From positions 1 to 40,994 of IMG/VR virus record IMGVR_UViG_2617270943_000004: a stretch of 40,994 bases of DNA; one strand, given 5' to 3'. This document shows positions 1 to 10,448 of this stretch, piece by piece. The notes under the pieces were generated by a model. That model did no database searches and had not been told where the DNA came from. It saw only the letters and a program-made list of their open reading frames with translations. Source of the DNA: a virus. Its lineage: Duplodnaviria; Heunggongvirae; Uroviricota; Caudoviricetes. Position numbers and translations under genes: made by a program. The stretch's first letter is position 1; each line of letters begins with the position of its first letter.

Positions 1-933
1 ATGGACAACGACAAAATTGATCAACACAGCGACGAAATTGAAGTTGAGAGCGAAGAAAAAGAACGCGGCAAAAAAATAGAAATAGATGAAGACCGACTCC
101 CCTCCCGGGCGATGGCAATTCATGAACATATCCGCCAGGATGGTGAAAAAGAGCTGGAACGCGACGCAATGGCGCTACTGTGGTCAGCCATTGCGGCGGG
201 TCTGTCGATGGGCGCTTCACTACTGGCAAAAGGGATATTTCATGTCGAACTGGAAGGCGTGCCGGGCAGTTTCTTGCTGGAGAATCTCGGTTATACCTTT
301 GGCTTTATTATCGTCATTATGGCCCGCCAACAATTATTTACCGAAAACACCGTGACTGCAGTACTACCCGTCATGCAAAAACCGACAATGAGTAACGTCG
401 GCTTACTTATGCGGTTATGGGGCGTCGTGCTGCTGGGTAATATTCTCGGGACAGGTATTGCGGCGTGGGCATTTGAATATATGCCTATCTTTAATGAAGA
501 AACTCGCGATGCATTTGTAAAAATCGGCATGGATGTGATGAAGAACACCCCCAGTGAGATGTTTGCCAACGCGATCATTTCCGGCTGGCTGATCGCCACT
601 ATGGTATGGATGTTTCCTGCAGCGGGTGCGGCAAAGATTGTAGTGATTATATTAATGACCTGGCTTATCGCCCTCGGAGACACCACCCACATCGTTGTCG
701 GTTCTGTAGAAATCCTCTATCTGGTATTTAACGGCACGCTGCACTGGAGCGATTTCATCTGGCCCTTCGCGCTGCCTACTCTGGCAGGAAACATCTGCGG
801 CGGCACCTTTATCTTCGCGTTAATGAGTCATGCACAGATCCGTAACGACATGAGCAACAAGCGCAAAGCAGAAGCACGACAAAAAGCAGAACGTGCGGAA
901 AACATTAAGAAAAATGATAAAAACCCGGCATAA
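1..933 (+). CDS. yfdC: Inner membrane protein, formate/nitrite transporter-family-like (host gene)
   Basis: Complete 310-aa ORF starting at base 1; hydrophobic multi-helix composition; recalled as the gene immediately upstream of argW in E. coli. Not verified by search. Confidence 0.55.
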   Translation: MDNDKIDQHSDEIEVESEEKERGKKIEIDEDRLPSRAMAIHEHIRQDGEKELERDAMALLWSAIAAGLSMGASLLAKGIFHVELEGVPGSFLLENLGYTFGFIIVIMARQQLFTENTVTAVLPVMQKPTMSNVGLLMRLWGVVLLGNILGTGIAAWAFEYMPIFNEETRDAFVKIGMDVMKNTPSEMFANAIISGWLIATMVWMFPAAGAAKIVVIILMTWLIALGDTTHIVVGSVEILYLVFNGTLHWSDFIWPFALPTLAGNICGGTFIFALMSHAQIRNDMSNKRKAEARQKAERAENIKKNDKNPA

Positions 934-1089: not shown

Positions 1090-1244
1090 AGTTCGCTCCC
1101 ATCCGCACCAGTCCGCAAAATCCCCTGAATATCAAGCCTTCCGTAGATTCACAGTTCGTCATGGTTCGCTTCAGATCGTTGACAGCCGCACTCCATGACG
1201 GGTAAAAAGTGGATAAAATAATTTTACCCACCGGATTTTTACCC

Positions 1245-2402
1245 ATGCTCACCGTTAAGCAGATTGAAGCAGCAAAGCCGAAAGAAAAACCATATCGCCT
1301 ACTCGATGGTAATGGCCTGTATCTTTATGTCCCTGTATCAGGGAAAAAGGTATGGCAGCTTCGCTACAAGATTGACGGTAAGGAGAAAATCCTGACCGTC
1401 GGAAAATATCCGCTTATGACTTTGCAAGAGGCAAGGGATAAAGCATGGACTGCGAGGAAAGACATCTCGGTTGGCATCGATCCGGTAAAGGCGAAAAAGG
1501 CTTCGTCTAACAACAATTCCTTTAGCTCCATTTACAAGGAATGGTACGAGCACAAGAAGCAAGTCTGGTCAGTAGGCTATGCAAATGAACTTGCAAAAAT
1601 GTTTGATGACGACATTTTACCCATCATCGGCGGTCTTGAGATTCAGGATATTGAGCCGATGCAACTGCTGGAAGTAATCCGCAGATTTGAAGATCGCGGT
1701 GCAATGGAGCGAGCAAATAAAGCCCGCAGAAGATGCGGCGAGGTTTTCCGTTACGCTATTGTCACTGGTAGGGCTAAATATAACCCGGCACCTGACCTTG
1801 CTGACGCCATGAAGGGATACCGCAAGAAGAACTTCCCGTTTCTGCCTGCAGACCAGATCCCGGCATTCAATAAAGCACTGGCAACATTTTCAGGAAGTAT
1901 CGTATCGCTCATTGCCACCAAGGTTTTACGCTACACAGCCCTAAGAACGAAAGAGCTTCGTTCCATGCAATGGAAGAACGTCGATTTTGAAAACAGGATT
2001 ATCACCATCGACGCCAATGTGATGAAGGGCCGCAAAATTCATGTGGTTCCTATGTCAGACCAGGTGGTTGAACTTCTCACTACGCTAAGCTCAATCACCA
2101 AACCAGTATCAGAGTTTGTTTTTGCCGGTCGCAACGATAAGAAGAAGCCAATCTGCGAGAACGCGGTGCTGCTTGTGATCAAACAAATCGGCTATGAGGG
2201 TCTGGAAAGCGGTCACGGATTCAGGCATGAATTCAGCACGATTATGAACGAGCACGAATGGCCTGCTGATGCTATTGAAGTGCAACTGGCACATGCCAAC
2301 GGCGGATCTGTGCGCGGTATTTACAACCATGCGCAGTATCTCGATAAGCGCAGGGAGATGATGCAGTGGTGGGCAGACTGGCTTGATGGGAAGGTTGATT
2401 AA
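1245..2402 (+). CDS. intS: Tyrosine integrase, P4-type, argW-specific (IntS-like)
   Basis: 385 aa from ATG 1245 (the ORF-track start at 1209 is an upstream GTG); directly downstream of tRNA-Arg; C-terminal region has recombinase-like HxxR and Y residues; recalled match to IntS of the KplE1/CPS-53 element. Confidence 0.8.
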   Translation: MLTVKQIEAAKPKEKPYRLLDGNGLYLYVPVSGKKVWQLRYKIDGKEKILTVGKYPLMTLQEARDKAWTARKDISVGIDPVKAKKASSNNNSFSSIYKEWYEHKKQVWSVGYANELAKMFDDDILPIIGGLEIQDIEPMQLLEVIRRFEDRGAMERANKARRRCGEVFRYAIVTGRAKYNPAPDLADAMKGYRKKNFPFLPADQIPAFNKALATFSGSIVSLIATKVLRYTALRTKELRSMQWKNVDFENRIITIDANVMKGRKIHVVPMSDQVVELLTTLSSITKPVSEFVFAGRNDKKKPICENAVLLVIKQIGYEGLESGHGFRHEFSTIMNEHEWPADAIEVQLAHANGGSVRGIYNHAQYLDKRREMMQWWADWLDGKVD

Positions 2403-2530: not shown

Positions 2531-4987
2531 TCAGGGAATTATCATATTCCCTGTTGTTACTATATATGGAGTATTTTCTGGCTCGTTGACTCTACTAACG
2601 CCACGCTCTACGTTTCCAGTGTGATTTAAGTAACTGCCACCTGATGTAATAGATTTCTGAAACTCTATTTTCCCACCTTGAAACGTATTCCCTGTAGAGT
2701 TTACTCTGAATGCTCCTGAAGCATTATTTATTTTGAATGCGCATGTTTCTCCGCTCAATATACATTGATTATTTTTATATGACATTGTTATTGGTCCACT
2801 TCCTGCCTCATCTTTATTTAAAGTAAAATGACTATTAAGCCCTGACGCTCCTGTTCCAGACTGTGAAACGTCATGTATTTTTACGATTTGCTCTGATGGG
2901 CCTTGAAAAATAAAACCAGTATTAGATAATGATCCGGACAGCATGCTAAACCGCGTTGCAGCAACAACATTCTCAAGACTTGAACCTGATCCTGAAACAT
3001 CACAATTAATTAGTTCAATCCAACTACCACCATAATATGAACCGTTTGAATTCCTGATATATGTCGATTCAATTTTCACCCTTTGGTTAAGAGAATCAGG
3101 CAGAGCATTCTCTGCTTGCTTGTTTAACACAATGTCACAGCCGAATATTTTTGCCCCACGCCCATAAACATTAGAGCTTTGGGTAAATCTAAGCCCTCTA
3201 TCGGCATCAGTTGAGTTTTCTCCAATAGTAACATCAATCAATGTGACGGCATCATTGTTTAATCTTGCACCTTTTGTAAATATTGCATGCAATATGTTAA
3301 GGTTGGTAACTTTTGAAGTTGCAATTAAATAATCTCCGAAATGATGGGTTACAGTTATATTATCTGCTGACTCACCATAATATTCACCACTGTTTGCAAT
3401 GCTTAAAAGACCATAATTATTATCAAATCGCAAATTGTGCTCAAACATACCGTGCGTTGTAAATGCACCATTTCTTGTTCCTGTTTCTCCGCAATCTCTT
3501 ACAGAGCAATAACTTGCACCACTAAAATCAACTACGTGCCTTCCTGAAATATTGCGTAATCTTCTTGCGTGGCATTCATATGCGTTATTGAATTGAACAA
3601 CATGATCGGACCCTGGAACTCTTGGGAAATTTGTTTCCGTATCATGAACAAAAACATTCCTGACCATGGCAGTTACAACCATTGGGTAAGGGTGATTAAA
3701 TCCATACCCGAGACAAATGTCAGCGTTATTTACGTATTCAAGGGACACAAGTGCGCATGATTGTTGACTGGCAAATGCATCGCCACCACCTGAAGCATCT
3801 GTTATGTTTTGATTCCATTTTACGCCTTTAAAAGCAATTCTTACATTTTCTATTGGGGTTACATTTCTATATGTCAATACCCTTCCGACATCAAGATGCC
3901 AGCCTGTTTTATAATCAACTCGCAATTGAGTTATTGCTCCACCACTGCCCTGCACTTGTGTCATTACATTTATTTCTCTACCTACGGTTCCCCCGCCAAC
4001 ATCCGATGACATAATAACCCACTGTCTATTCTCAAAAAGAGAGTTGTTCGTACACCAATATGTTGTATCTCCTTTTGATATTTTATTTGTTAGAGTAAAA
4101 GAGTCTATTATATCTCCAGCAGTGCCGCGAAATGCTAGAATGCCAGGAAAACGATAGTTACTTGGATTTGTAGATCCACTTCTATCAGGAATATGTCCTT
4201 CCGGAGCATTCCATATTATCTCCGTATCAGGCATATCAATTGCCAGGTCGCCGCGTGTAATTACAATATTGTTTGTTAGTATCAACTCTTTTATATTTGT
4301 TGTGATTTTTTTTGCTGGTGAGTTAATTGCTTTATGAAATGCTTCGGTGTTGTCAGCGCCATCTTTAGCTCCGAAATCCTCAAGCATAACATTATATATA
4401 TCATCTGATTTCCATACATTTCCTTCTGATGTGAAAATTATCGTTCCTCCGTTATCTGTCAATCCATCAGGATTAACACTACGGAAAAACCTTCCACCTC
4501 CTGAATAGCTGTCAGAGTAATATCCCCTCAGTCTTATAACCTGTCCATCATAACTTGGTTCAATTGTTCTCAATGTAGATATATCTTTGCATTCTCCTAT
4601 ATACTTATAGCCATCATCACTTTTCAGCAAATATGAAAACTGATCTGGATCGTACTTCAGCACATTAGGGAAATAGAACTGCTGTGATCCATATGCATCG
4701 TACACAGCCATAGAATGGCCTTGCACGGTTACGAATTTGGCAATCTGTCCGTTATATACAGGATAACCAGCAGCGTTAATGATGATTGGTTGCGAAACAG
4801 GAACGTGAGAGCCGTCTTCGTTTTCCACATAAACCTGAATCTGGTTTTCAGGATTTACAGGGTCAGTGTCAATTTTACCGATATAAATTTTGCCATTGGC
4901 ATTTGCTTTAAACGAGCGAGCTAAAGTAAATAACTGACTTGGTTGTGAAACAACAACGTTGTATAATTGTTCTGGCATAATAAACAT
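2531..4987 (-). CDS. Tailspike protein with P22-type N-terminal head-binding domain and a long divergent receptor-binding domain
   Basis: 818 aa; the first ~110 aa (NVVVSQP...[19 protein letters not shown]...INAAG...[13 protein letters not shown]...VLKYDPDQ) follow the recalled P22 gp9 head-binding domain; the remainder is G/S/N/T-rich, consistent with a beta-helix. Confidence 0.85.
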
Positions 4988-5000
4988 TCCGGAGAAAATA

Positions 5001-5501
5001 ATGAGTAAGAGACGTCACGAGGTAGTAACTCGGGAGCGCCTTATGGAGGTTCTCGATTACAATAAAGAAACAGGAATTTTCACTTGGAAAAAGAAATTAA
5101 GCGCCAGAGGTGCTGTTGGGAAAGTTGCTGGCACAATTTCTTATGGATATAACGCAATTAATATTGATGGCGTAAGATATTTTGCACATAGACTTGCCTG
5201 GCTGTATGTATATGGCGAATGGCCCAAACAAGAGATTGACCACATTGATAGAAATAGAAGAAATAACGCAATCTCAAACCTTAGGGATGTCAGCAGAGTC
5301 GTAAACGCATTAAATGTCGGACCTCGAAATAGCAATGCTGGAATCAAGGGGGTAACTTTCTGTCAAGCCAGAAATCAATGGCAAGCTCAGATAAATGTCT
5401 CAGGTAAAAACATAACCCTTGGGAGATTCAACACCATTGATGAAGCGGCTATAGCTTATAAGGCAGCAAACATGGTTGCTGACCATCTGTTGAGTAGGTA
5501 A
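5001..5501 (+). CDS. HNH endonuclease with AP2-like DNA-binding domain (free-standing homing-endonuclease-like)
   Basis: 166 aa; GGAG 7 nt upstream of ATG 5001; HNH-like motif [13 protein letters not shown]-terminal GIKGVTF...W.A.I...GK...[15 protein letters not shown] resembles an AP2 domain; paralogous to the ORF at 26109-26675. Confidence 0.65.
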
Positions 5502-5614: not shown

Positions 5615-6340
5615 TTAGGCTGCGGTAGAAACATTAATTAGATTTCTCAATACTTCAACTCCTTTTAAGTTGTAGCGAAACGCCTCTACCTGTTTGCTGG
5701 AATGCGCCGATTTATCCAGGAAGAACTTCCCGTACTGCTCAGTTTTGAGGTTGTTTGCGTTAGCAATGCGACCAATCTTGTTGGCCGTTACTCCAAGCTG
5801 CTCTGCAACCTCCCCTGCTGAGTAGTAATGCTCTTCTATTGCCGGAAGAGGTATTGCATTAAAACCAACAAGCGGGTTGATTATAGTTGCTGCCGCTGTC
5901 TGCTTTGCCTCCGGCGCAAGATTTGGCATCAGATCGAACAGATTGGTAACAGCTTCAACCGTCATTTTCAGTGTTCGCGCTTGACGATACTCAACAAGTC
6001 CACTCGCTGATTTACCGCTTTTAATGTGTGCTTCCTGCATACTTTCAAGTTTGTCTACAAGTGTTCGGCGAACTGCTTTAGATTCGCGAGCAGCAACACG
6101 AAGCGCCTGCTTGATAGTCATGGAGATAACATCAATGTCAGCCCCGTTTTTCCGACCTACACTTTTTGTGTAGGTCTCGCCCTCCAATTCATCCTCAATT
6201 TTCTCGATGAATTTGTTGTTACGTACAGATGGCTCTCCACATAACTTGCGAGCTTCATTAACCATCATCAGAAGACTTTGGCTGTCAATGGTTTTATCCG
6301 TGACAACGGATCCGATGTTTGCTACATTCTTCAAAGTCAT
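5615..6340 (-). CDS. Phage antirepressor-like protein, C-terminal (KilAC/ANT-C-like) type; family tentative
   Basis: ATG at 6340 preceded by AAGGAA; the ORF-track start at 6391 is a GTG inside a terminator hairpin; lies in the immI-like block downstream of arc-like and Bro-N-like genes. Confidence 0.45.
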   Translation of the reverse strand: MTLKNVANIGSVVTDKTIDSQSLLMMVNEARKLCGEPSVRNNKFIEKIEDELEGETYTKSVGRKNGADIDVISMTIKQALRVAARESKAVRRTLVDKLESMQEAHIKSGKSASGLVEYRQARTLKMTVEAVTNLFDLMPNLAPEAKQTAAATIINPLVGFNAIPLPAIEEHYYSAGEVAEQLGVTANKIGRIANANNLKTEQYGKFFLDKSAHSSKQVEAFRYNLKGVEVLRNLINVSTAA

Positions 6341-6409
6341 TAGGCATTCCTTATGTGGTAGTAAGGGTGTGACATAGGCCGCCAGCAGCACACTGGCGGT
6401 TTTCTTTTT
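6335..6409 (+). ncRNA. Predicted sar-like antisense RNA overlapping the start codon and RBS of the antirepressor-like gene
   Basis: Plus-strand promoter-like TGACAA (6301-6306), 16-bp spacer, TACATT (6323-6328), and about 75 nt downstream a plus-strand intrinsic terminator (stem CCGCCAG/CTGGCGG 6379-6399, then TTTTCTTTTT). Nearby genes are on the minus strand, so the transcript would be antisense to the ATG at 6340. Confidence 0.35.
6379..6409 (+). terminator. Intrinsic terminator on the plus strand (3' end of predicted antisense RNA)
   Basis: 7-bp GC-rich stem, 7-nt loop, followed by TTTTCTTTTT. Confidence 0.55.
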
Positions 6410-6428: not shown

Positions 6429-7055
6429 TCAATGAATCCATTCCTCGCCGCGAAGTTTTGCCAGCATTGGCTGAGCGTTCTTTACGACAAAATTGTTGGT
6501 ATCAAGATTCTTCATTTCACGAAGAAGTGATTTCTTGGTTTCTTCTGACATGTAGCGAGTCTCATATGCAATATCGTAAATCCTTCCTGAAAGCTCAGAA
6601 CCAATTTGCTTCATTCCTGGGTAGATGTGTTTGCACATTTGTTGACTCTTCTCCATCCACAATTGTAAGTAGCAGAGATTAACCAGTTCTTCGTCAGTAA
6701 ACTGTTTTGCAATCGGTGAGCATTCTGCCTGCCGATCCAAAATATCCAGCACCCAGCGGCGGAACTCTTTGGCTACCGGAGTGCGAGCAAACATCGCGAT
6801 TAGGTGGGCACCGCGTAGTGAGAAAACTCGCACTTTTTTGCGATAATTTCCTGAGGTACTCACTTCGAGTACCTGAGTCATTCCGGCGCTAAACTCATCG
6901 CTATACTTGTTATAAATCATTGTTACTGCACGACTATTTGCGTATTTAAGTGCAGATGCAATATTAGATGATGTAAACCAAACACCATGCATATCACGGG
7001 TGGGCACCAACTCAACTCCGTGGAAGTTGTAATCTGATTTTGCTACAATATTCAT
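6429..7055 (-). CDS. Phage antirepressor, N-terminal Bro-N/AntA-like domain protein
   Basis: ATG 7055 preceded by AAGGAA; N-terminus MNIVAKSDYNFHGVELVPTRDMHGVWFTSSNIASAL resembles Bro-N/AntA antirepressor N-domains; follows the arc-like gene as ant follows arc in P22 immI. Confidence 0.6.
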   Translation of the reverse strand: MNIVAKSDYNFHGVELVPTRDMHGVWFTSSNIASALKYANSRAVTMIYNKYSDEFSAGMTQVLEVSTSGNYRKKVRVFSLRGAHLIAMFARTPVAKEFRRWVLDILDRQAECSPIAKQFTDEELVNLCYLQLWMEKSQQMCKHIYPGMKQIGSELSGRIYDIAYETRYMSEETKKSLLREMKNLDTNNFVVKNAQPMLAKLRGEEWIH

Positions 7056-7128
7056 GTTAGTTTCCTTGCATACGGTTACTGACATAGAGGCCCGGTTTGT
7101 GTTCGCGCACTGCCGGGCTTCGCTATTT

Positions 7129-7302
7129 TTACTGGGCATTAGCTCTTTCCTCTCTCAGGCTTTTAGCCAGTCGCTGCACAATCGCAGAGTTGATAGAAAT
7201 TCCATCCATTTCAGCAACACGTCTAATCTCCTCCTTCATTCGCGCTGGCAAACGAAGCTGGAAACTTTGACTTTTACGACCTGTGTAAAGCACATCTTTC
7301 AT
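7129..7302 (-). CDS. arc: Arc-like ribbon-helix-helix repressor
   Basis: 57 aa from ATG 7302 with GGGAGG RBS; FQLRLPARMKEEIRRVAEMDGISINSAIVQRLAKS follows the recalled P22 Arc pattern (FNLRWPREVLDLVRKVAEENGRSVNSEIYQRV). Confidence 0.7.
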   Translation of the reverse strand: MKDVLYTGRKSQSFQLRLPARMKEEIRRVAEMDGISINSAIVQRLAKSLREERANAQ

Positions 7303-7323
7303 AAGTAATCCTCCCACAATGAT

Positions 7324-7377
7324 ACCAACTTGGTTCTAGAACCAATTTAACACCATTTATTTTGATGTCAAGTTGGT
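7324..7377. promoter_or_regulatory. Divergent arc/mnt control region with a 16-bp perfect palindrome and a flanking 9-bp inverted repeat pair
   Basis: TTGGTTCTAGAACCAA at 7330-7345; ACCAACTTG (7324-7332) and its reverse complement CAAGTTGGT (7369-7377). Confidence 0.45.
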
Positions 7378-7413: not shown

Positions 7414-7797
7414 ATGAGCAAGTTCCCTAGTCATGAAATGGATAGGTTCAATATCAGGCTTCCGGCAGGAATGCGGGATGCTATAGCCTTAAGAGCAAAG
7501 GAAAACGGCAGATCAATGAATACAGAACTAGTGTTTATCATTGATGATGCATTGAAGTCTCCGGTGCCTGCTGAGGTTGATAACTCAAGGATTATGAAGA
7601 TTTACTCAAACCTCTCCGAGAACAGGCCATCAAACAAAGAAGAGTTTGAGCGGTGGGAGAATGAGCTAGTCAAAGCAATTTTCTACTTACTAGATAGCAT
7701 AAGTTCTCATTCGCAAATGTATCAAGCTCTCAGGAGCTTAAGGCAAGATGCATATAAAAATGTTTTTGGCGATGATGCTGAAGACATCCAGTTTTGA
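7414..7797 (+). CDS. mnt: Mnt-like ribbon-helix-helix repressor with C-terminal extension
   Basis: 127 aa; GAGGT RBS; N-terminus FNIRLPAGMRDAIALRAKENGRSMNTELVFIIDDALKS follows the recalled P22 Mnt pattern (FNFRMPMEVREKLKFRAEANGRSMNSELLQIVQDALS). Confidence 0.65.
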   Translation: MSKFPSHEMDRFNIRLPAGMRDAIALRAKENGRSMNTELVFIIDDALKSPVPAEVDNSRIMKIYSNLSENRPSNKEEFERWENELVKAIFYLLDSISSHSQMYQALRSLRQDAYKNVFGDDAEDIQF

Positions 7798-7845
7798 AGA
7801 CCATTTCATCTGGTATCCTGCGCAAAACTAAGGAGAGTTAATTAT

Positions 7846-8331
7846 ATGAAAAAATCACTGTTAATTATCCCGCTTCTGCTGGCTGGGTGCGCAAAAGTAA
7901 GCGACCATCAGGCAAGTTGCGAGCAACGCTATCCAAAGCTTAGCGATATGGCTAATTGCCTTGATGCCAGCGTGAAGAACGACTCACGCATGGCATCAGC
8001 ACCAACACCTAAGCTGTATGTCCTTGCTGCGAAAATGCTCGGGCAAGGTGTCGATGAAGGCAAGATAAGTGACGCACAGGCAAGACTTGAGCTTCAGAAT
8101 CTTTATGTTCAATTACAAAGCCAAGAACAAGCACAACAAATAGCACAAAGCCAAGCATTCCAGCAGGCTTTATTGAATTATCAGGCTGTAAACACAATGC
8201 AAGCGATCGAGCAAAAAGCGCGCCAGCCTGTTATAACTCAACCTTACCCAACACGCGTTGACACCTATACAAACTGCAATTCAGGATTTGGAAATACCGT
8301 CACATGCAACAGTAGCAGCAACATTAGATAA
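7846..8331 (+). CDS. Predicted lipoprotein, glutamine-rich (accessory gene in the sieA position)
   Basis: 161 aa; AAGGAGAG RBS; signal peptide MKKSLLIIPLLLAGC with lipobox LAGC; Q-rich central segment; sits between mnt-like and the ejection-protein genes. Confidence 0.6.
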   Translation: MKKSLLIIPLLLAGCAKVSDHQASCEQRYPKLSDMANCLDASVKNDSRMASAPTPKLYVLAAKMLGQGVDEGKISDAQARLELQNLYVQLQSQEQAQQIAQSQAFQQALLNYQAVNTMQAIEQKARQPVITQPYPTRVDTYTNCNSGFGNTVTCNSSSNIR

Positions 8332-8333
8332 AG

Positions 8334-10448
8334 CTATTCATATTCATTCATACCGCTTAACGAGGCGACAATACCAGCTCTCGACAAGCGATTGAATTCA
8401 TCGCTACCAATAGCATCGCGTATTGCTTTTACGGCGGCTTTATTTTCCATAAATCTGCGTTCCGCCGCCGCTAATGCTTCTTTACTTCCGCCAGTTCTTA
8501 CTGCTTTCGTGGCTTCCTGAACTGCTTTCTCTATCGCATATCGACCGCTACGCGTGGTGGCAATTTTAGATACAGCACCTTTTAACCCGGCGCCAACTAA
8601 AGCACCTGCGGCAGCGCCTGCAATGCCCCCTCCTGCTCCACCAACAATGGCACCTGATGTTGAGTTGGCAATTGCATTTAACACTGTTGATGTGACGTTG
8701 GATAAACCGGCATCCAGATCGCGTAGTACATTGGCAGTTCTCCCTGTTCTTTCAATATACTGCTGAGGTTTCACTGCTGCTCTTGCAAGAGTGCCATATG
8801 CATCAGCAATTCTTCCGAGTTCTGAGGAATATCTGCTAATGGCTTTTACATTTTGTGGGGTAAGTATCCCTGCGATATGGTTAATTCCTGCTGCATCAGC
8901 TTTGCCACCACGTACACCATGCGAGATAGCATCTTGCAACATTGATGATATAGCAGGAACACGCTCTGATTCTGGCAGCGCGCGGATCATAGAATGGAAC
9001 CCAGCAGGACCATTAAGACCTTTAGCTGACGATGATTGAAGGGATTTTACTCCATTCGTAATCAGTGCATCTGTTGCCAAATCACGCCCGAAAACAGACT
9101 CTGCACTCTCTTGTGCTGATAACCTCGCTTTAGACAGATCATTAGCTTTCTGCCAGTCATCAAGAAATCCGCCGTTTTCCGCCATTGTGCGCATATCATC
9201 AGTAATTGCCCGGCGTATTTCCCCTACTCTCCTTGCCGCATTTGCCTCTCCGCTACGCTTATATTTTTGCTCCGCATCAGCAAATTTCGCTCTCCATGCT
9301 TTCATGCCATCAAATGTTACTCCACCTTGATTGTTTGCCTGAACAAACTGTTTCATTTCAGGAGTAAGCGGTATGCCAGCAGATCGCTCTGCCTGAATAA
9401 CGGCATTACCATTTAGCATTCTTGCTTTTTGATTTGGCATTGTTGACCGCACGTCATCCCATGCCGCGCGCTCGGCATCCTTCATCTGATCAAGATTTTG
9501 AAGAATCCTTTGTTTTATAGCCGCACTTTTTTCTGATGCCGTTCCAGATGCGGCCCCAAATTCATCAAGGTTTCGACTTAACTTTGATGATATTTCGTTA
9601 AATGCTGCCTGATGGGCGTCCTGAACAATTCCAGGTGTTGATGCCAATGCGCCTTCGGCTTGTGCAATTCCACGACTTCCAGATCGCATTCCTGGTGTTA
9701 ATGCGTTTATATCAATTCCAGCAGACTCAGCTGCTTTTGCTACATCTTCGGACACATTAGCGGCCTGACTGGCAATTGACTGACGCCCAGCACCTGACTT
9801 TGCCATCCTGGAAACATCATTAGCAGAATTCAGTGCTGCACCACCAAGAGCCTGTGAAACCTTTGGCGCAATAACGCGCCCGACACCTGAAAGAACGCCT
9901 TGAGCACCAATATTGATACCACCGTTAATGGCAGCATTTTGTGCAAAATCACCCTCCTGATTTGCAGCATCAGCAAGAGAACCGGCAATCATGTTTCCTG
10001 CGGAACCGATGTCTCCTGCGAGCTTTGCTGGCGCTCCAGCAGCTTTTGCCGCTGTGCCAATTGGCAGGAGATACCCACCAATTGTTTCACCGGCTTGCGC
10101 GTAAGGGTCTGTCGGTCGATCGACTGGACGATAGACATCATCCAAAACCTTGGGGCCACCAAGCCCCTGGCTGATTGCATTAATCAGACTTGCGCCACCC
10201 TGCAATACGTCAAATGGTATGTTTACCAGACCACGACCAGCCTGTTCTGCAATTTGCCCTGCACTTTGACCACCAGTGAGCCAGTCAGTGGCTTTTCCTA
10301 CCAGAGATTGTTCTTCTGGCTGCGATTGGTTTTGAGTGGATTGATCACCAGAAGACAGCATCTGAGCAATGCGACGTGCTCCCTCAGTATCACCGGCAGC
10401 ATCAGCATTCCTTAACGCCGTCATCAACTGTTCGCGACTATAGGCCAT
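8334..10448 (-). CDS. Ejection (internal virion) protein, P22 gp16-like
   Basis: 704 aa, Ala/Gly-rich; position in the conserved P22-like order (16 after 20 after 7). Confidence 0.55.

What the first reader, a model, noticed from the sequence alone, without database searches (positions are those of the whole stretch)
7846..8331. Glutamine-rich lipoprotein in the sieA slot: candidate superinfection-exclusion factor
Between mnt and the ejection-protein genes P22 carries sieA. Here that slot holds a 161-aa predicted lipoprotein (lipobox LAGC) with a Q-rich, coiled-coil-like segment and its own strong RBS. It is co-oriented with mnt, so it would be expressed in the lysogen. An envelope lipoprotein made by the prophage could block DNA ejection or a receptor. 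I could not assign it to a family.
Basis: inference. Interest (0 to 1): 0.6.

Follow-up and report, generated by a model that had tools for sequence, protein, structure and literature searches.

The report
Uncharacterised prophage lipoprotein in sieA slot
A real, conserved, prophage-expressed outer-membrane lipoprotein gene of unknown fold sits where phage P22 keeps its superinfection-exclusion gene sieA; it is a good but untested candidate for a new way prophages block incoming phages.

Summary
The ORF is real: 7846-8331 (+), 161 aa, lipobox LLAG|C15, Ala at +2, SD AAGGAG. It is convergent with the gp16-like ejection gene, with stop codons 2 nt apart. It belongs to PHROG 6067 (unknown function) and has no Pfam, NCBIfam or PADLOC match. 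A pLDDT 86 model has no meaningful fold relative in PDB or BFVD. It is under strong purifying selection (pN/pS 0.06).

In Enterobacterales I found it only in P22-like (pro)phages, always convergent with gp16. It is present in 186 of 5,426 complete E. coli genomes. No locus carrying it also has sieA type A or B. Published RNA-seq of the 98%-identical Gally/LF82 orthologue shows lysogen expression: 4.5x prophage background in LB and about 18x higher in macrophages.

About 259 distant clusters exist, and some lie in core-chromosome contexts.

The slot, the lipoprotein call and lysogen expression are supported. The exclusion function remains positional inference (about 0.4). The main rival is a host-fitness envelope factor. 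I rate it a new variant of a known kind, of moderate interest and easy to test.

The parts
7846..8331 (+). Lipoprotein CDS, 161 aa including signal peptide. Member of PHROG 6067.
   Evidence: ORF list. PHROG 6067 E=2e-109 over the full length. 91 homologues. pN/pS 0.059.
7846..7890 (+). Signal peptide with lipobox L12-A13-G14-C15. Cys15 is the predicted lipidated first residue of the mature protein. Ala16 at +2 predicts outer-membrane sorting.
   Evidence: Read directly from the sequence. C15 is invariant in 30 of 30 sequences. 121 of 131 family members have a lipobox and none has Asp at +2. The Lol-avoidance rule is established knowledge.
7897..8145 (+). N-terminal helical domain, about residues 18-100, with an invariant Cys25/Cys38 pair (codons 7918-7920 and 7957-7959). 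This is the part conserved across the whole wider family.
   Evidence: AF2 model mb361d71c9c24, pLDDT 91-98 over this region. Invariant C25 and C38.
8095..8226 (+). Gln-rich segment, residues 84-127 (15 of 44 are Q). It is the distal part of one long helix (76-125). In distant relatives this is a variable-length, low-complexity spacer.
   Evidence: Composition. Secondary structure. Variable linker length, 64-122 residues between the two Cys pairs.
8260..8322 (+). C-terminal beta-hairpin, residues 139-159, with Cys144/Cys154 (codons 8275-8277 and 8305-8307). Family motif T-x-C-x3-G-N-x3-C. It is the most strongly constrained part of the protein.
   Evidence: Strands 139-146 and 152-159. C154 is invariant and C144 is conserved in at least 90%. 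pN/pS 0.013 for residues 128-161.
7811..7819 (+). Candidate extended -10 promoter element TGgTATCCT, 27-35 nt upstream of the ATG.
   Evidence: It lies in the only upstream block conserved across different genomic contexts. Similar elements occur at the same distance in Tatumella, a MAG, Morganella/Proteus and Salmonella phage VSe13. It was not detected by the two-hexamer scan. It is an inference; no TSS data are available.
7830..7835 (+). Shine-Dalgarno AAGGAG.
   Evidence: Read directly. Conserved in nearly all E. coli-type loci.
7414..7797 (+). mnt-like Arc-family repressor gene (127 aa), co-oriented, 48 nt upstream. Read-through from its promoter is possible.
   Evidence: Pfam Arc E=1e-16 and PHROG 3178. 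The same mnt-lipoprotein adjacency occurs in Proteus phage Brookers.
7129..7317 (-). arc-like repressor gene, divergent from the mnt-like gene.
   Evidence: Pfam Arc E=1e-11.
6429..7139 (-). Antirepressor gene (ant).
   Evidence: Pfam Bro-N plus P22_AR_C, and PHROG 245.
7344..7371 (-). Pant-like sigma-70 promoter: TTGACA, 16-nt spacer, TAAATT, with TG.
   Evidence: Consensus scan, 10 of 12 matches.
8334..10448 (-). gp16-type ejection ('DNA transfer') protein gene, convergent with the lipoprotein gene. The stop codons are 2 nt apart.
   Evidence: PHROG 770 E=5e-217. The convergent arrangement is seen in all P22-like loci examined.

Best explanation
The gene is an accessory ('moron') gene of P22-like prophages. 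It encodes an outer-membrane-anchored, periplasm-facing lipoprotein that is made in the lysogen.

The mature protein has three parts:
- a compact helical head tethered directly under the outer membrane, with a Cys25-Cys38 pair;
- a Gln-rich helical stalk followed by a Pro-rich linker;
- a highly constrained beta-hairpin carrying the Cys144/Cys154 pair.

[quoted passage not shown] From the outer-membrane side it would interfere with genome delivery by incoming phages. It could do this in two ways. It could disturb assembly of the trans-periplasmic ejection-protein conduit (gp7/gp20/gp16). Or it could bind a conserved host envelope component that delivery needs, as Cor and Llp do with FhuA.

Shown here: the gene, the lipoprotein signals, the position, the replacement of sieA, lysogen expression of an orthologue, and purifying selection. 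Inferred: lipidation, outer-membrane location, disulfides, the promoter, and the entire exclusion mechanism.
For: Position:
- The gene is convergent with gp16, exactly like sieA in P22 and like type B sieA in E. coli HS.
- The same slot and orientation in BTP1 holds the exclusion RNA STnc6030.
- In all of the roughly 90 P22-like loci where a downstream ORF could be read, the lipoprotein gene is convergent with a gp16-type ORF.

Mutual exclusivity:
- No sieA type A or B is found in any lipoprotein locus.
- The 41 SieA-carrying phage records and the 5 lipoprotein phages do not overlap.

Envelope location:
- Lipobox with no Asp at +2, conserved family-wide.

Prophage expression:
- LF82_138 is 4.5x above prophage background in LB and is second only to the C2 repressor.
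- A conserved -10-like element and an SD travel with the gene.
- mnt-lipoprotein operon-like adjacency occurs in E. coli and in Proteus.

Accessory nature:
- It is present in 186 of the roughly 819-1,251 E. coli genomes that have a P22-type gp7.
- It is oriented against the late operon.

Functional protein:
- pN/pS is 0.059 overall and 0.013 for the C-terminal hairpin.
- SieA is known to work at the envelope against the ejection proteins, so an envelope protein in this slot is consistent with precedent.
Against: - No phenotype has been published.
- The same 98%-identical lipoprotein sits next to many different gp16 types, of 615 to 911 aa. It is therefore not matched to a particular ejection protein.
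- Distant homologues lie in core-chromosome neighbourhoods (uvrC, bio genes). This suggests an endogenous envelope function.
- The orthologue is induced about 18-fold at 1 h in macrophages and about 4-fold in DMEM, together with four neighbouring genes. That looks like host adaptation.
- The Gally authors did not class it as a moron, because it fell just below their 5x cut-off.
Confidence: 0.4

Rival explanations
1. It is a lysogenic-conversion envelope factor that benefits the host during stress or infection, with no role against phages. The benefit could be in macrophages, serum, or under envelope or nutrient stress. This would be in the manner of lambda Bor, Lom or TraT.
For: - LF82_138 rises from log2 about 6.1 in LB to about 8.0 in DMEM, 10.3 in macrophages at 1 h and 8.6 at 6 h.
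- The same paper notes that Bor is also induced in DMEM.
- Neighbouring slot genes in relatives are also small envelope proteins (Gally14 lipoprotein, orf104, orf81).
- Distant homologues sit in core chromosomes, which implies a cellular envelope function.
- Purifying selection is very strong and there is little allelic diversification.
Against: - All five right-end Gally genes, including the tailspike and mnt, rise together. The induction may therefore be regional rather than specific.
- In Enterobacterales the gene is confined to one phage type and to one position next to the ejection genes, across at least 10 genera. A general fitness factor would not be expected to show this pattern.
- There is no similarity to Bor, Lom or TraT.
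Confidence: 0.3
2. The transcript matters more than the protein. The gene has no terminator before it runs antisense into the 3' end of gp16. Its mRNA could therefore act like BTP1 STnc6030, an antisense RNA that excludes or regulates phages sharing that gp16 sequence.
For: - The stop codons of the lipoprotein and gp16 genes are 2 nt apart.
- No convincing intrinsic terminator lies downstream on the + strand, either in the window or in the 90-nt spacer of Gally.
- STnc6030 occupies the same slot and orientation and confers exclusion.
Against: - The protein is strongly constrained. pN/pS is 0.06, with high synonymous divergence (pS 0.29) but pN 0.004 at the 3' end nearest gp16. Selection therefore acts on the peptide, not on RNA complementarity.
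- The same gene sits next to unrelated gp16 3' ends.
- An antisense effect could at most be an add-on to the protein's function.
Confidence: 0.1
3. It serves the phage's own lytic cycle, for example by helping ejection-protein export or assembly, modulating lysis, or preventing progeny from re-adsorbing to or injecting into lysing cells or debris.
For: - It is tightly linked to the ejection-protein genes in every P22-like locus.
- Weak PHROG hits to spanin-type lipoproteins exist, but over the signal peptide only.
Against: - It is oriented against the late operon and is expressed in the uninduced lysogen.
- It is absent from most P22-like phages, including P22, so it is not needed for growth.
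Confidence: 0.1
4. It is a selfish or neutral passenger with no significant function, kept only by linkage to gp16.
For: No function is known, and homology breakpoints hug the gene.
Against: - pN/pS is 0.06, with four conserved Cys and a conserved lipobox over large evolutionary distances.
- The gene is retained in at least 8 different upstream contexts.
Confidence: 0.05

Closest known systems
P22 SieA (types A-C), inner-membrane superinfection-exclusion protein
   Same: Same genomic position and orientation, convergent with gene 16 between the ejection genes and immI/tailspike. Both are prophage-expressed, act at the envelope, are accessory, and are about 160-210 aa. The two are mutually exclusive in that slot.
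   Different: SieA is a polytopic inner-membrane protein with a cytoplasmic FxRYPxEAxxFNK motif. This protein has a cleavable lipoprotein signal, no other hydrophobic segment, and a predicted outer-membrane anchor. There is no sequence similarity.
Cor (phi80/N15/HK022) and Llp (T5): outer-membrane lipoproteins that inactivate FhuA
   Same: Phage-encoded lipoproteins with a lipobox and Cys pairs that act from the periplasmic face of the outer membrane. This is the mechanistic template for one version of the hypothesis.
   Different: There is no homology. The Cor PHROG matches residues 1-29 only (E=0.039) and no Llp family is hit. The mature protein is more than twice as large, with a stalk-and-hairpin architecture. 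The carriers are O-antigen-specific podoviruses, not FhuA-dependent siphoviruses, and the target is unknown.
Ltp (Streptococcus phage TP-J34): surface lipoprotein that blocks DNA injection by binding the tape-measure protein
   Same: A prophage-expressed lipoprotein that blocks genome delivery by binding an ejected phage protein. This is the template for the other version of the hypothesis.
BTP1 STnc6030 antisense RNA
   Same: Same slot and strand, antisense to the 3' end of the gp16 homologue. It is prophage-expressed and confers exclusion.
   Different: It is described as a non-coding RNA, and no homologue of this protein was found in any other phage record. Here the coding sequence is under strong protein-level selection.
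Lambda Bor / TraT-type lysogenic-conversion lipoproteins
   Same: Prophage- or plasmid-borne outer-membrane lipoproteins expressed in the lysogen, and induced in host-like media.
   Different: There is no sequence similarity, and the genomic position is different.
PHROG 6067 (function unknown)
   Same: Full-length membership (E=2e-109). Distant cellular homologues also hit it.
   Different: Nothing. This is simply the uncharacterised family it belongs to.

Membership tests
Bacterial lipoprotein (Lgt/LspA substrate) | N-terminal signal peptide with a basic n-region, a hydrophobic h-region and a lipobox [LVI][ASTVI][GAS]C | tested here: met
   The N-terminus is MKKSLLIIPLLLAG|C15. C15 is invariant in 30 of 30 sequences. 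A lipobox is present in 121 of 131 wider-family members.
Bacterial lipoprotein (Lgt/LspA substrate) | Actual diacylglyceryl modification and globomycin-sensitive processing | not testable with these tools
   Needs palmitate labelling or globomycin treatment.
Outer-membrane-sorted lipoprotein (Lol pathway) | No Asp at position +2 | tested here: met
   Residue +2 is Ala. Across 121 family members +2 is A, T, V, S, G and a few others, never D. The sorting rule is established knowledge for E. coli; the location itself was not shown.
PHROG 6067 | Full-length HMM match | tested here: met
   E=2e-109, residues 1-161 against profile positions 1-161.
SieA | Sequence homology to SieA types A or B | tested here: not met
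   No SieA PHROG is hit. tblastn with P22 and HS1 SieA finds nothing in any lipoprotein locus at E<0.1. Type C was not tested directly.
SieA | Polytopic inner-membrane topology and the FxRYPxEAxxFNK motif | tested here: not met
   The only hydrophobic stretch is the signal peptide, and the mature sequence is hydrophilic. The motif is absent. An 'RYP' at residues 28-30 is not conserved in the family. The motif and topology are taken from PMC10883804.
SieA | Location between gene 16 and gene 9, convergent with gene 16 | tested here: met
SieA | Blocks DNA entry of P22-like phages; escape mutations map to gp16/gp20 | not testable with these tools
   Needs plating and DNA-entry assays.
Cor / Llp receptor-blocking lipoproteins | Sequence homology | tested here: not met
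Cor / Llp receptor-blocking lipoproteins | Binding and inactivation of an outer-membrane receptor | not testable with these tools
   Needs adsorption assays and interaction studies.
Type II secretion minor pseudopilin GspK (the name carried by Cronobacter orthologues) | NCBIfam NF037980 score above the cut-off | tested here: not met
   18.9 bits against a cut-off of 130, matching only the Gln-rich helix. The names are misannotations.
Known anti-phage defence systems (PADLOC-DB v2) | Match to any model | tested here: not met
   0 families at E<=10.
Prophage moron | Transcribed in the lysogen independently of the lytic programme | tested here: met
   This was tested only through published data for the 98%-identical orthologue LF82_138. 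It is 4.5x above the prophage median in LB, while flanking late genes are at background. It was not measured for this window's prophage.
Prophage moron | Own promoter and terminator | tested here: inconclusive
   A conserved extended -10-like element lies at 7811-7819 and at the same distance in other genera. No -35 element and no intrinsic terminator were found.

The most novel reading that the evidence does not exclude
This family is a previously unrecognised class of superinfection-exclusion protein with a new fold. It would be an outer-membrane-tethered 'stalk and disulfide-hairpin' lipoprotein that blocks assembly or passage of the podovirus trans-periplasmic DNA conduit, or disables a conserved envelope component that conduit needs. 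It would be the functional alternative to SieA in about a fifth of E. coli P22-like prophages. Its cellular homologues across Proteobacteria would represent a widespread envelope-level barrier to phage genome delivery.
Probability: 0.3. Interest if true: 0.65.

Novelty: new variant of a known kind. Interest (0 to 1): 0.45.

Why it matters
How podovirus ejection proteins cross the periplasm, and how cells can stop them, is poorly understood. SieA is the only characterised inhibitor, and it acts from the inner membrane.

A second, unrelated inhibitor acting from the outer membrane would give an independent handle on the conduit. Escape mutants would show which ejection protein or host factor is targeted.

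It would also explain part of the phage resistance of about 3% of E. coli isolates, which is relevant to phage therapy. These include AIEC LF82 and ETEC/EHEC strains.

If the protein instead serves host fitness in macrophages, it would be the missing 'moron' of the Crohn's-associated Gally prophage. The original study judged that prophage to have none.

Either outcome would assign a function to a family of about 260 sequence clusters that currently has no annotation.

Tried and rejected
1. Family assignment by HMM. Pfam, NCBIfam and PADLOC gave nothing meaningful, and ten distant members also had no Pfam match. Weak hits to GspK, VirB7, Cor and Rz-like spanin cover only the signal peptide or the Gln-rich helix, so I rejected them.

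2. PDB sequence search with the family profile. Only E>1 noise was found.

3. Fold searches:
- Foldseek against BFVD gave nothing better than E=0.37.
- The AFDB library was unavailable.

4. Linkage to one gp16 type. I rejected this because the convergent ORF ranges from 615 to 911 aa, while the lipoprotein stays about 98% identical.

5. Intrinsic terminator downstream. None was convincing.

6. Broad-family locus retrieval with alignments A2 and A3 failed, because no stretch was conserved enough. I examined the contexts of distant members through individual proteins instead.

7. Literature search by accession, locus tag and PHROG id found no paper. Keyword searches found no study of a lipoprotein in this slot.

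8. Diversifying (arms-race) selection is not seen. Selection is purifying throughout.

Full report
**Observation**

The N-terminus MKKSLLIIPLLLAGC is a textbook lipoprotein signal, with lipobox LAG|C15 and Ala at +2. AAGGAG lies 10 nt upstream of the ATG. Residues 84-127 contain 15 Gln out of 44.

The surroundings are a P22-type immI region in inverted orientation:
- ant at 6429-7139 (-);
- an arc-like gene at 7129-7317 (-);
- an mnt-like Arc-family gene at 7414-7797 (+);
- the lipoprotein gene;
- convergent with it, a 704-aa gp16-type DNA-transfer protein at 8334-10448 (-), followed by gp20- and gp7-type genes.

The stop codons of the lipoprotein and gp16 genes are 2 nt apart. The annotated P22 genome confirms the reference arrangement 16(+), sieA(-), orf59a(-), mnt(-), arc, ant, 9, with sieA convergent with gene 16 and carrying its own promoter.

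**Is it a real gene?**

Yes.
- It matches PHROG 6067 (function unknown) end to end with E=2e-109.
- It has 91 clustered homologues at E<=0.001. They come from Escherichia, Citrobacter, Serratia, Klebsiella aerogenes, Cronobacter, Pectobacterium, Yersinia, Tatumella, Morganella, Providencia and others.
- Its exact sequence belongs to an 871-member 90% cluster.
- Among 58 distinct E. coli-type alleles, mean pN/pS is 0.059. For the C-terminal 34 residues it is 0.013 despite high synonymous divergence. Against Morganella, dN/dS is about 0.11.

Selection is therefore on the protein.

**What family is it?**

No Pfam, NCBIfam or PADLOC model matches. The 'GspK' name on Cronobacter orthologues is a misannotation: 18.9 bits against a cut-off of 130.

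An exhaustive profile search of 1.84 billion representatives found 259 clusters at E<=0.001 and 96 at E<=1e-10. Most are 120-150-aa proteins from environmental Proteobacteria such as Sulfuricaulis and Sulfuritalea. They share one architecture:
- a lipobox (121 of 131) with no Asp at +2;
- an N-terminal domain with an invariant Cys pair;
- a variable low-complexity spacer;
- a C-terminal 'T-x-C-x3-G-N-x3-C' motif;
- exactly four Cys in the mature protein in 101 of 121 members.

None of them has a Pfam domain, and all hit PHROG 6067.

**Structure**

With a 30-sequence alignment, AlphaFold2 gave pLDDT 62. With a 131-sequence alignment it gave pLDDT 86 and pTM 0.60. The second model has:
- short helices at 18-28, 32-45, 47-51 and 53-70;
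- one long helix at 76-125, whose distal half is the Gln-rich segment;
- a Pro-rich linker;
- a beta-hairpin at 139-146/152-159 carrying Cys144 and Cys154.

Because the helical head starts three residues after the lipidated Cys, it should sit directly under the outer membrane. The stalk and hairpin would then project into the periplasm. This is an inference from the model.

**Genomic distribution**

- tblastn finds the gene in five isolated phages, all Lederbergvirus: Escherichia phages Gally and vB_EcoP-720R6, Salmonella phages VSe13 and MS2 LVA, and Proteus phage Brookers.
- It is in 186 of 5,426 complete E. coli genomes, always chromosomal.
- For comparison, 819-1,251 of those genomes have a P22-type gp7 gene and 21 have an HS1-type sieA.
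- IMG/VR yielded 127 further loci, of which 80 were kept.
- In all of the roughly 90 P22-like loci where a downstream ORF could be read, the gene is convergent with a gp16-type ORF. The gap is mostly -8 to +90 nt. The gp16 itself varies widely, from 615 to 911 aa, while the E. coli lipoprotein stays about 98% identical.

Upstream contexts fall into at least eight classes:
- directly behind mnt (this window; Proteus Brookers);
- behind mnt plus a small membrane or secreted ORF (L014, L015);
- divergent from another lipoprotein gene (Gally14);
- divergent from a 121-aa gene (L013);
- directly next to the tailspike gene with no immI region at all (Morganella, Yersinia).

**Relation to sieA**

SieA is a polytopic inner-membrane protein that blocks DNA delivery, and escape mutations map to gp16 and gp20. 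Only 22 of 66 P22-like phages carry it. Types A-C always lie between genes 16 and 9.

None of the lipoprotein loci contains a type A or type B sieA (tblastn, E<0.1). None of the 41 SieA-carrying phage records is one of the five lipoprotein phages. The two genes are thus alternative occupants of one position.

The same position and strand in BTP1 produces STnc6030, an RNA that excludes BTP1. The site convergent with gp16 is therefore a recurrent home of exclusion functions.

**Expression**

The only upstream sequence that travels with the gene across contexts is about 35-40 nt long: TGnTATCCTG(C/T)G(C/A)AAAACTAAGGAGAGTTAAyyAT-ATG. It contains the SD and an extended -10-like element (window 7811-7819).

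A TAnnnT element lies at the same distance in Tatumella, an enterobacterial MAG, Yersinia, Morganella/Proteus (a perfect TATAAT) and Salmonella phage VSe13. It is absent from the Gally-type class and three other classes. The two-hexamer scan found no + strand promoter, so the promoter is an inference.

Direct evidence comes from published RNA-seq of AIEC LF82, whose Gally prophage carries the 98%-identical orthologue LF82_138/GALLYPH_13.
- In overnight LB its normalised count is 70 against a prophage median of 15.6. That is 4.5-fold, the second highest after the C2 repressor, and just under the authors' 5-fold 'moron' cut-off.
- log2(fpkm+5) rises from about 6.1 in LB to about 8.0 in DMEM, 10.3 in macrophages at 1 h and 8.6 at 6 h.
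- The flanking injection genes stay at background.

The lysogen-expression prediction is thus supported for an orthologue. The four neighbouring right-end genes are induced in parallel.

**Mechanism**

Nothing in sequence or fold identifies the activity, so the mechanism rests on anatomy and context.

The best-supported reading (confidence about 0.4) is an outer-membrane-anchored periplasmic protein that interferes with genome delivery by superinfecting phages. There are two versions:
- it obstructs the gp7/gp20/gp16 conduit;
- it binds a conserved host envelope component, as Cor and Llp do with FhuA.

I slightly favour the host-component version, for two reasons. The same lipoprotein accompanies many unrelated gp16 types. 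Distant relatives also occur in bacteria and contexts with no P22-like phage: a core-chromosome neighbourhood with uvrC and bio genes, a toxin-antitoxin-rich island, and an integrase/terminase-bearing element.

The chief rival (about 0.3) is a host-fitness envelope factor, suggested by the DMEM/macrophage induction and the cellular homologues. An antisense-RNA role for the read-through transcript is possible, since no terminator was found. It cannot be the main function, given the protein-level selection. A lytic-cycle role is unlikely because of the orientation, the lysogen expression and the gene's dispensability.

**Novelty and verdict**

I found no publication on this family by accession, locus tag, PHROG id or keywords. 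It is a member of an existing but functionless database family.

As a kind of thing, a prophage-encoded envelope lipoprotein moron is familiar. In sequence, fold and architecture it is unrelated to Cor, Llp, Ltp, Bor and SieA. I rate it a new variant of a known kind.

Interest is moderate (0.45). A specialist would not be astonished. However, the gene is common, well defined and strongly constrained. It sits at a proven exclusion hotspot, and a few simple plating experiments could test the idea.

Noticed in passing
L001:5447-5866 (-) (Gally GALLYPH_14 / LF82_139); L015:3662-3976 (+); L014:3786-4031 (+); L013:3641-4006 (-): In related prophages, the slot between gp16 and the tailspike also holds other small envelope proteins of unknown function. 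These are a second lipoprotein (lipobox LLSGC, PHROG 6823, weak PEGA hit), a 104-aa secreted protein (PHROG 19844), an 81-aa membrane protein (PHROG 32536) and a 121-aa protein (PHROG 1365). LF82_139 is induced in DMEM and macrophages even more strongly than the lipoprotein. The slot looks like a hotspot for envelope morons.
   Followed up: partly
window 8331-8334 and downstream to about 8600: The lipoprotein and gp16 genes converge with only 2 nt between their stop codons, and no convincing intrinsic terminator follows on the + strand. The lipoprotein mRNA should therefore run antisense into the 3' end of gp16, as the exclusion RNA STnc6030 does in BTP1.
   Followed up: partly
window 5615-6391 (-) and 6429-7139 (-): There are two antirepressor genes in tandem downstream of the arc-like gene. 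One is a Bro-N/P22_AR_C Ant; the other is a 258-aa PHROG 1726 anti-repressor with no Pfam domain.
   Followed up: no
window 4959-5501 (+): A 180-aa ORF has HNH_3 and AP2 domains, typical of a homing-endonuclease-like gene. [quoted passage not shown]
   Followed up: no
window 7330-7345: A perfect 16-bp palindrome, TTGGTTCTAGAACCAA, lies between the arc-like and mnt-like genes. It overlaps the -10 of the Pant-like promoter (- strand, 7371..7344) and is a likely Arc/Mnt-type operator.
   Followed up: no
Cronobacter orthologues (P0023 cluster): Orthologues are named 'type II secretion system protein GspK' in NCBI records. The NF037980 score is 18.9 bits against a cut-off of 130, so this is a propagated misannotation caused by the Gln-rich helix.
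   Followed up: yes
alignment A1, C-terminal 35 residues (window 8227-8331): The family has two C-terminal modules: '...VDTYTNCNSGFGNTVTCNSSSNIR' and '...NNVTTNCTTYGNQTRCQSY'. They are recombined with otherwise similar N-terminal parts, for example in P0025 and P0030. Synonymous divergence among E. coli alleles is much higher at the 3' end (pS 0.29) than in the Gln-rich part (pS 0.04). This points to an intragenic mosaic boundary next to gp16.
   Followed up: partly
wider family (alignment A4): The last residue is aromatic (Y, F or W) in 62 of 131 members and R or K in 43 of 131, directly after the disulfide hairpin. This may reflect recognition of the C-terminus by a periplasmic partner; it remains unexplained.
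   Followed up: no
window 1-933 (+) and 1209-2402 (+): The left end of the window holds a formate/nitrite-transporter family gene and then a phage integrase, so one prophage end lies at about 950-1200. No gtr O-antigen-conversion genes lie between the integrase and the tailspike, unlike in P22.
   Followed up: no
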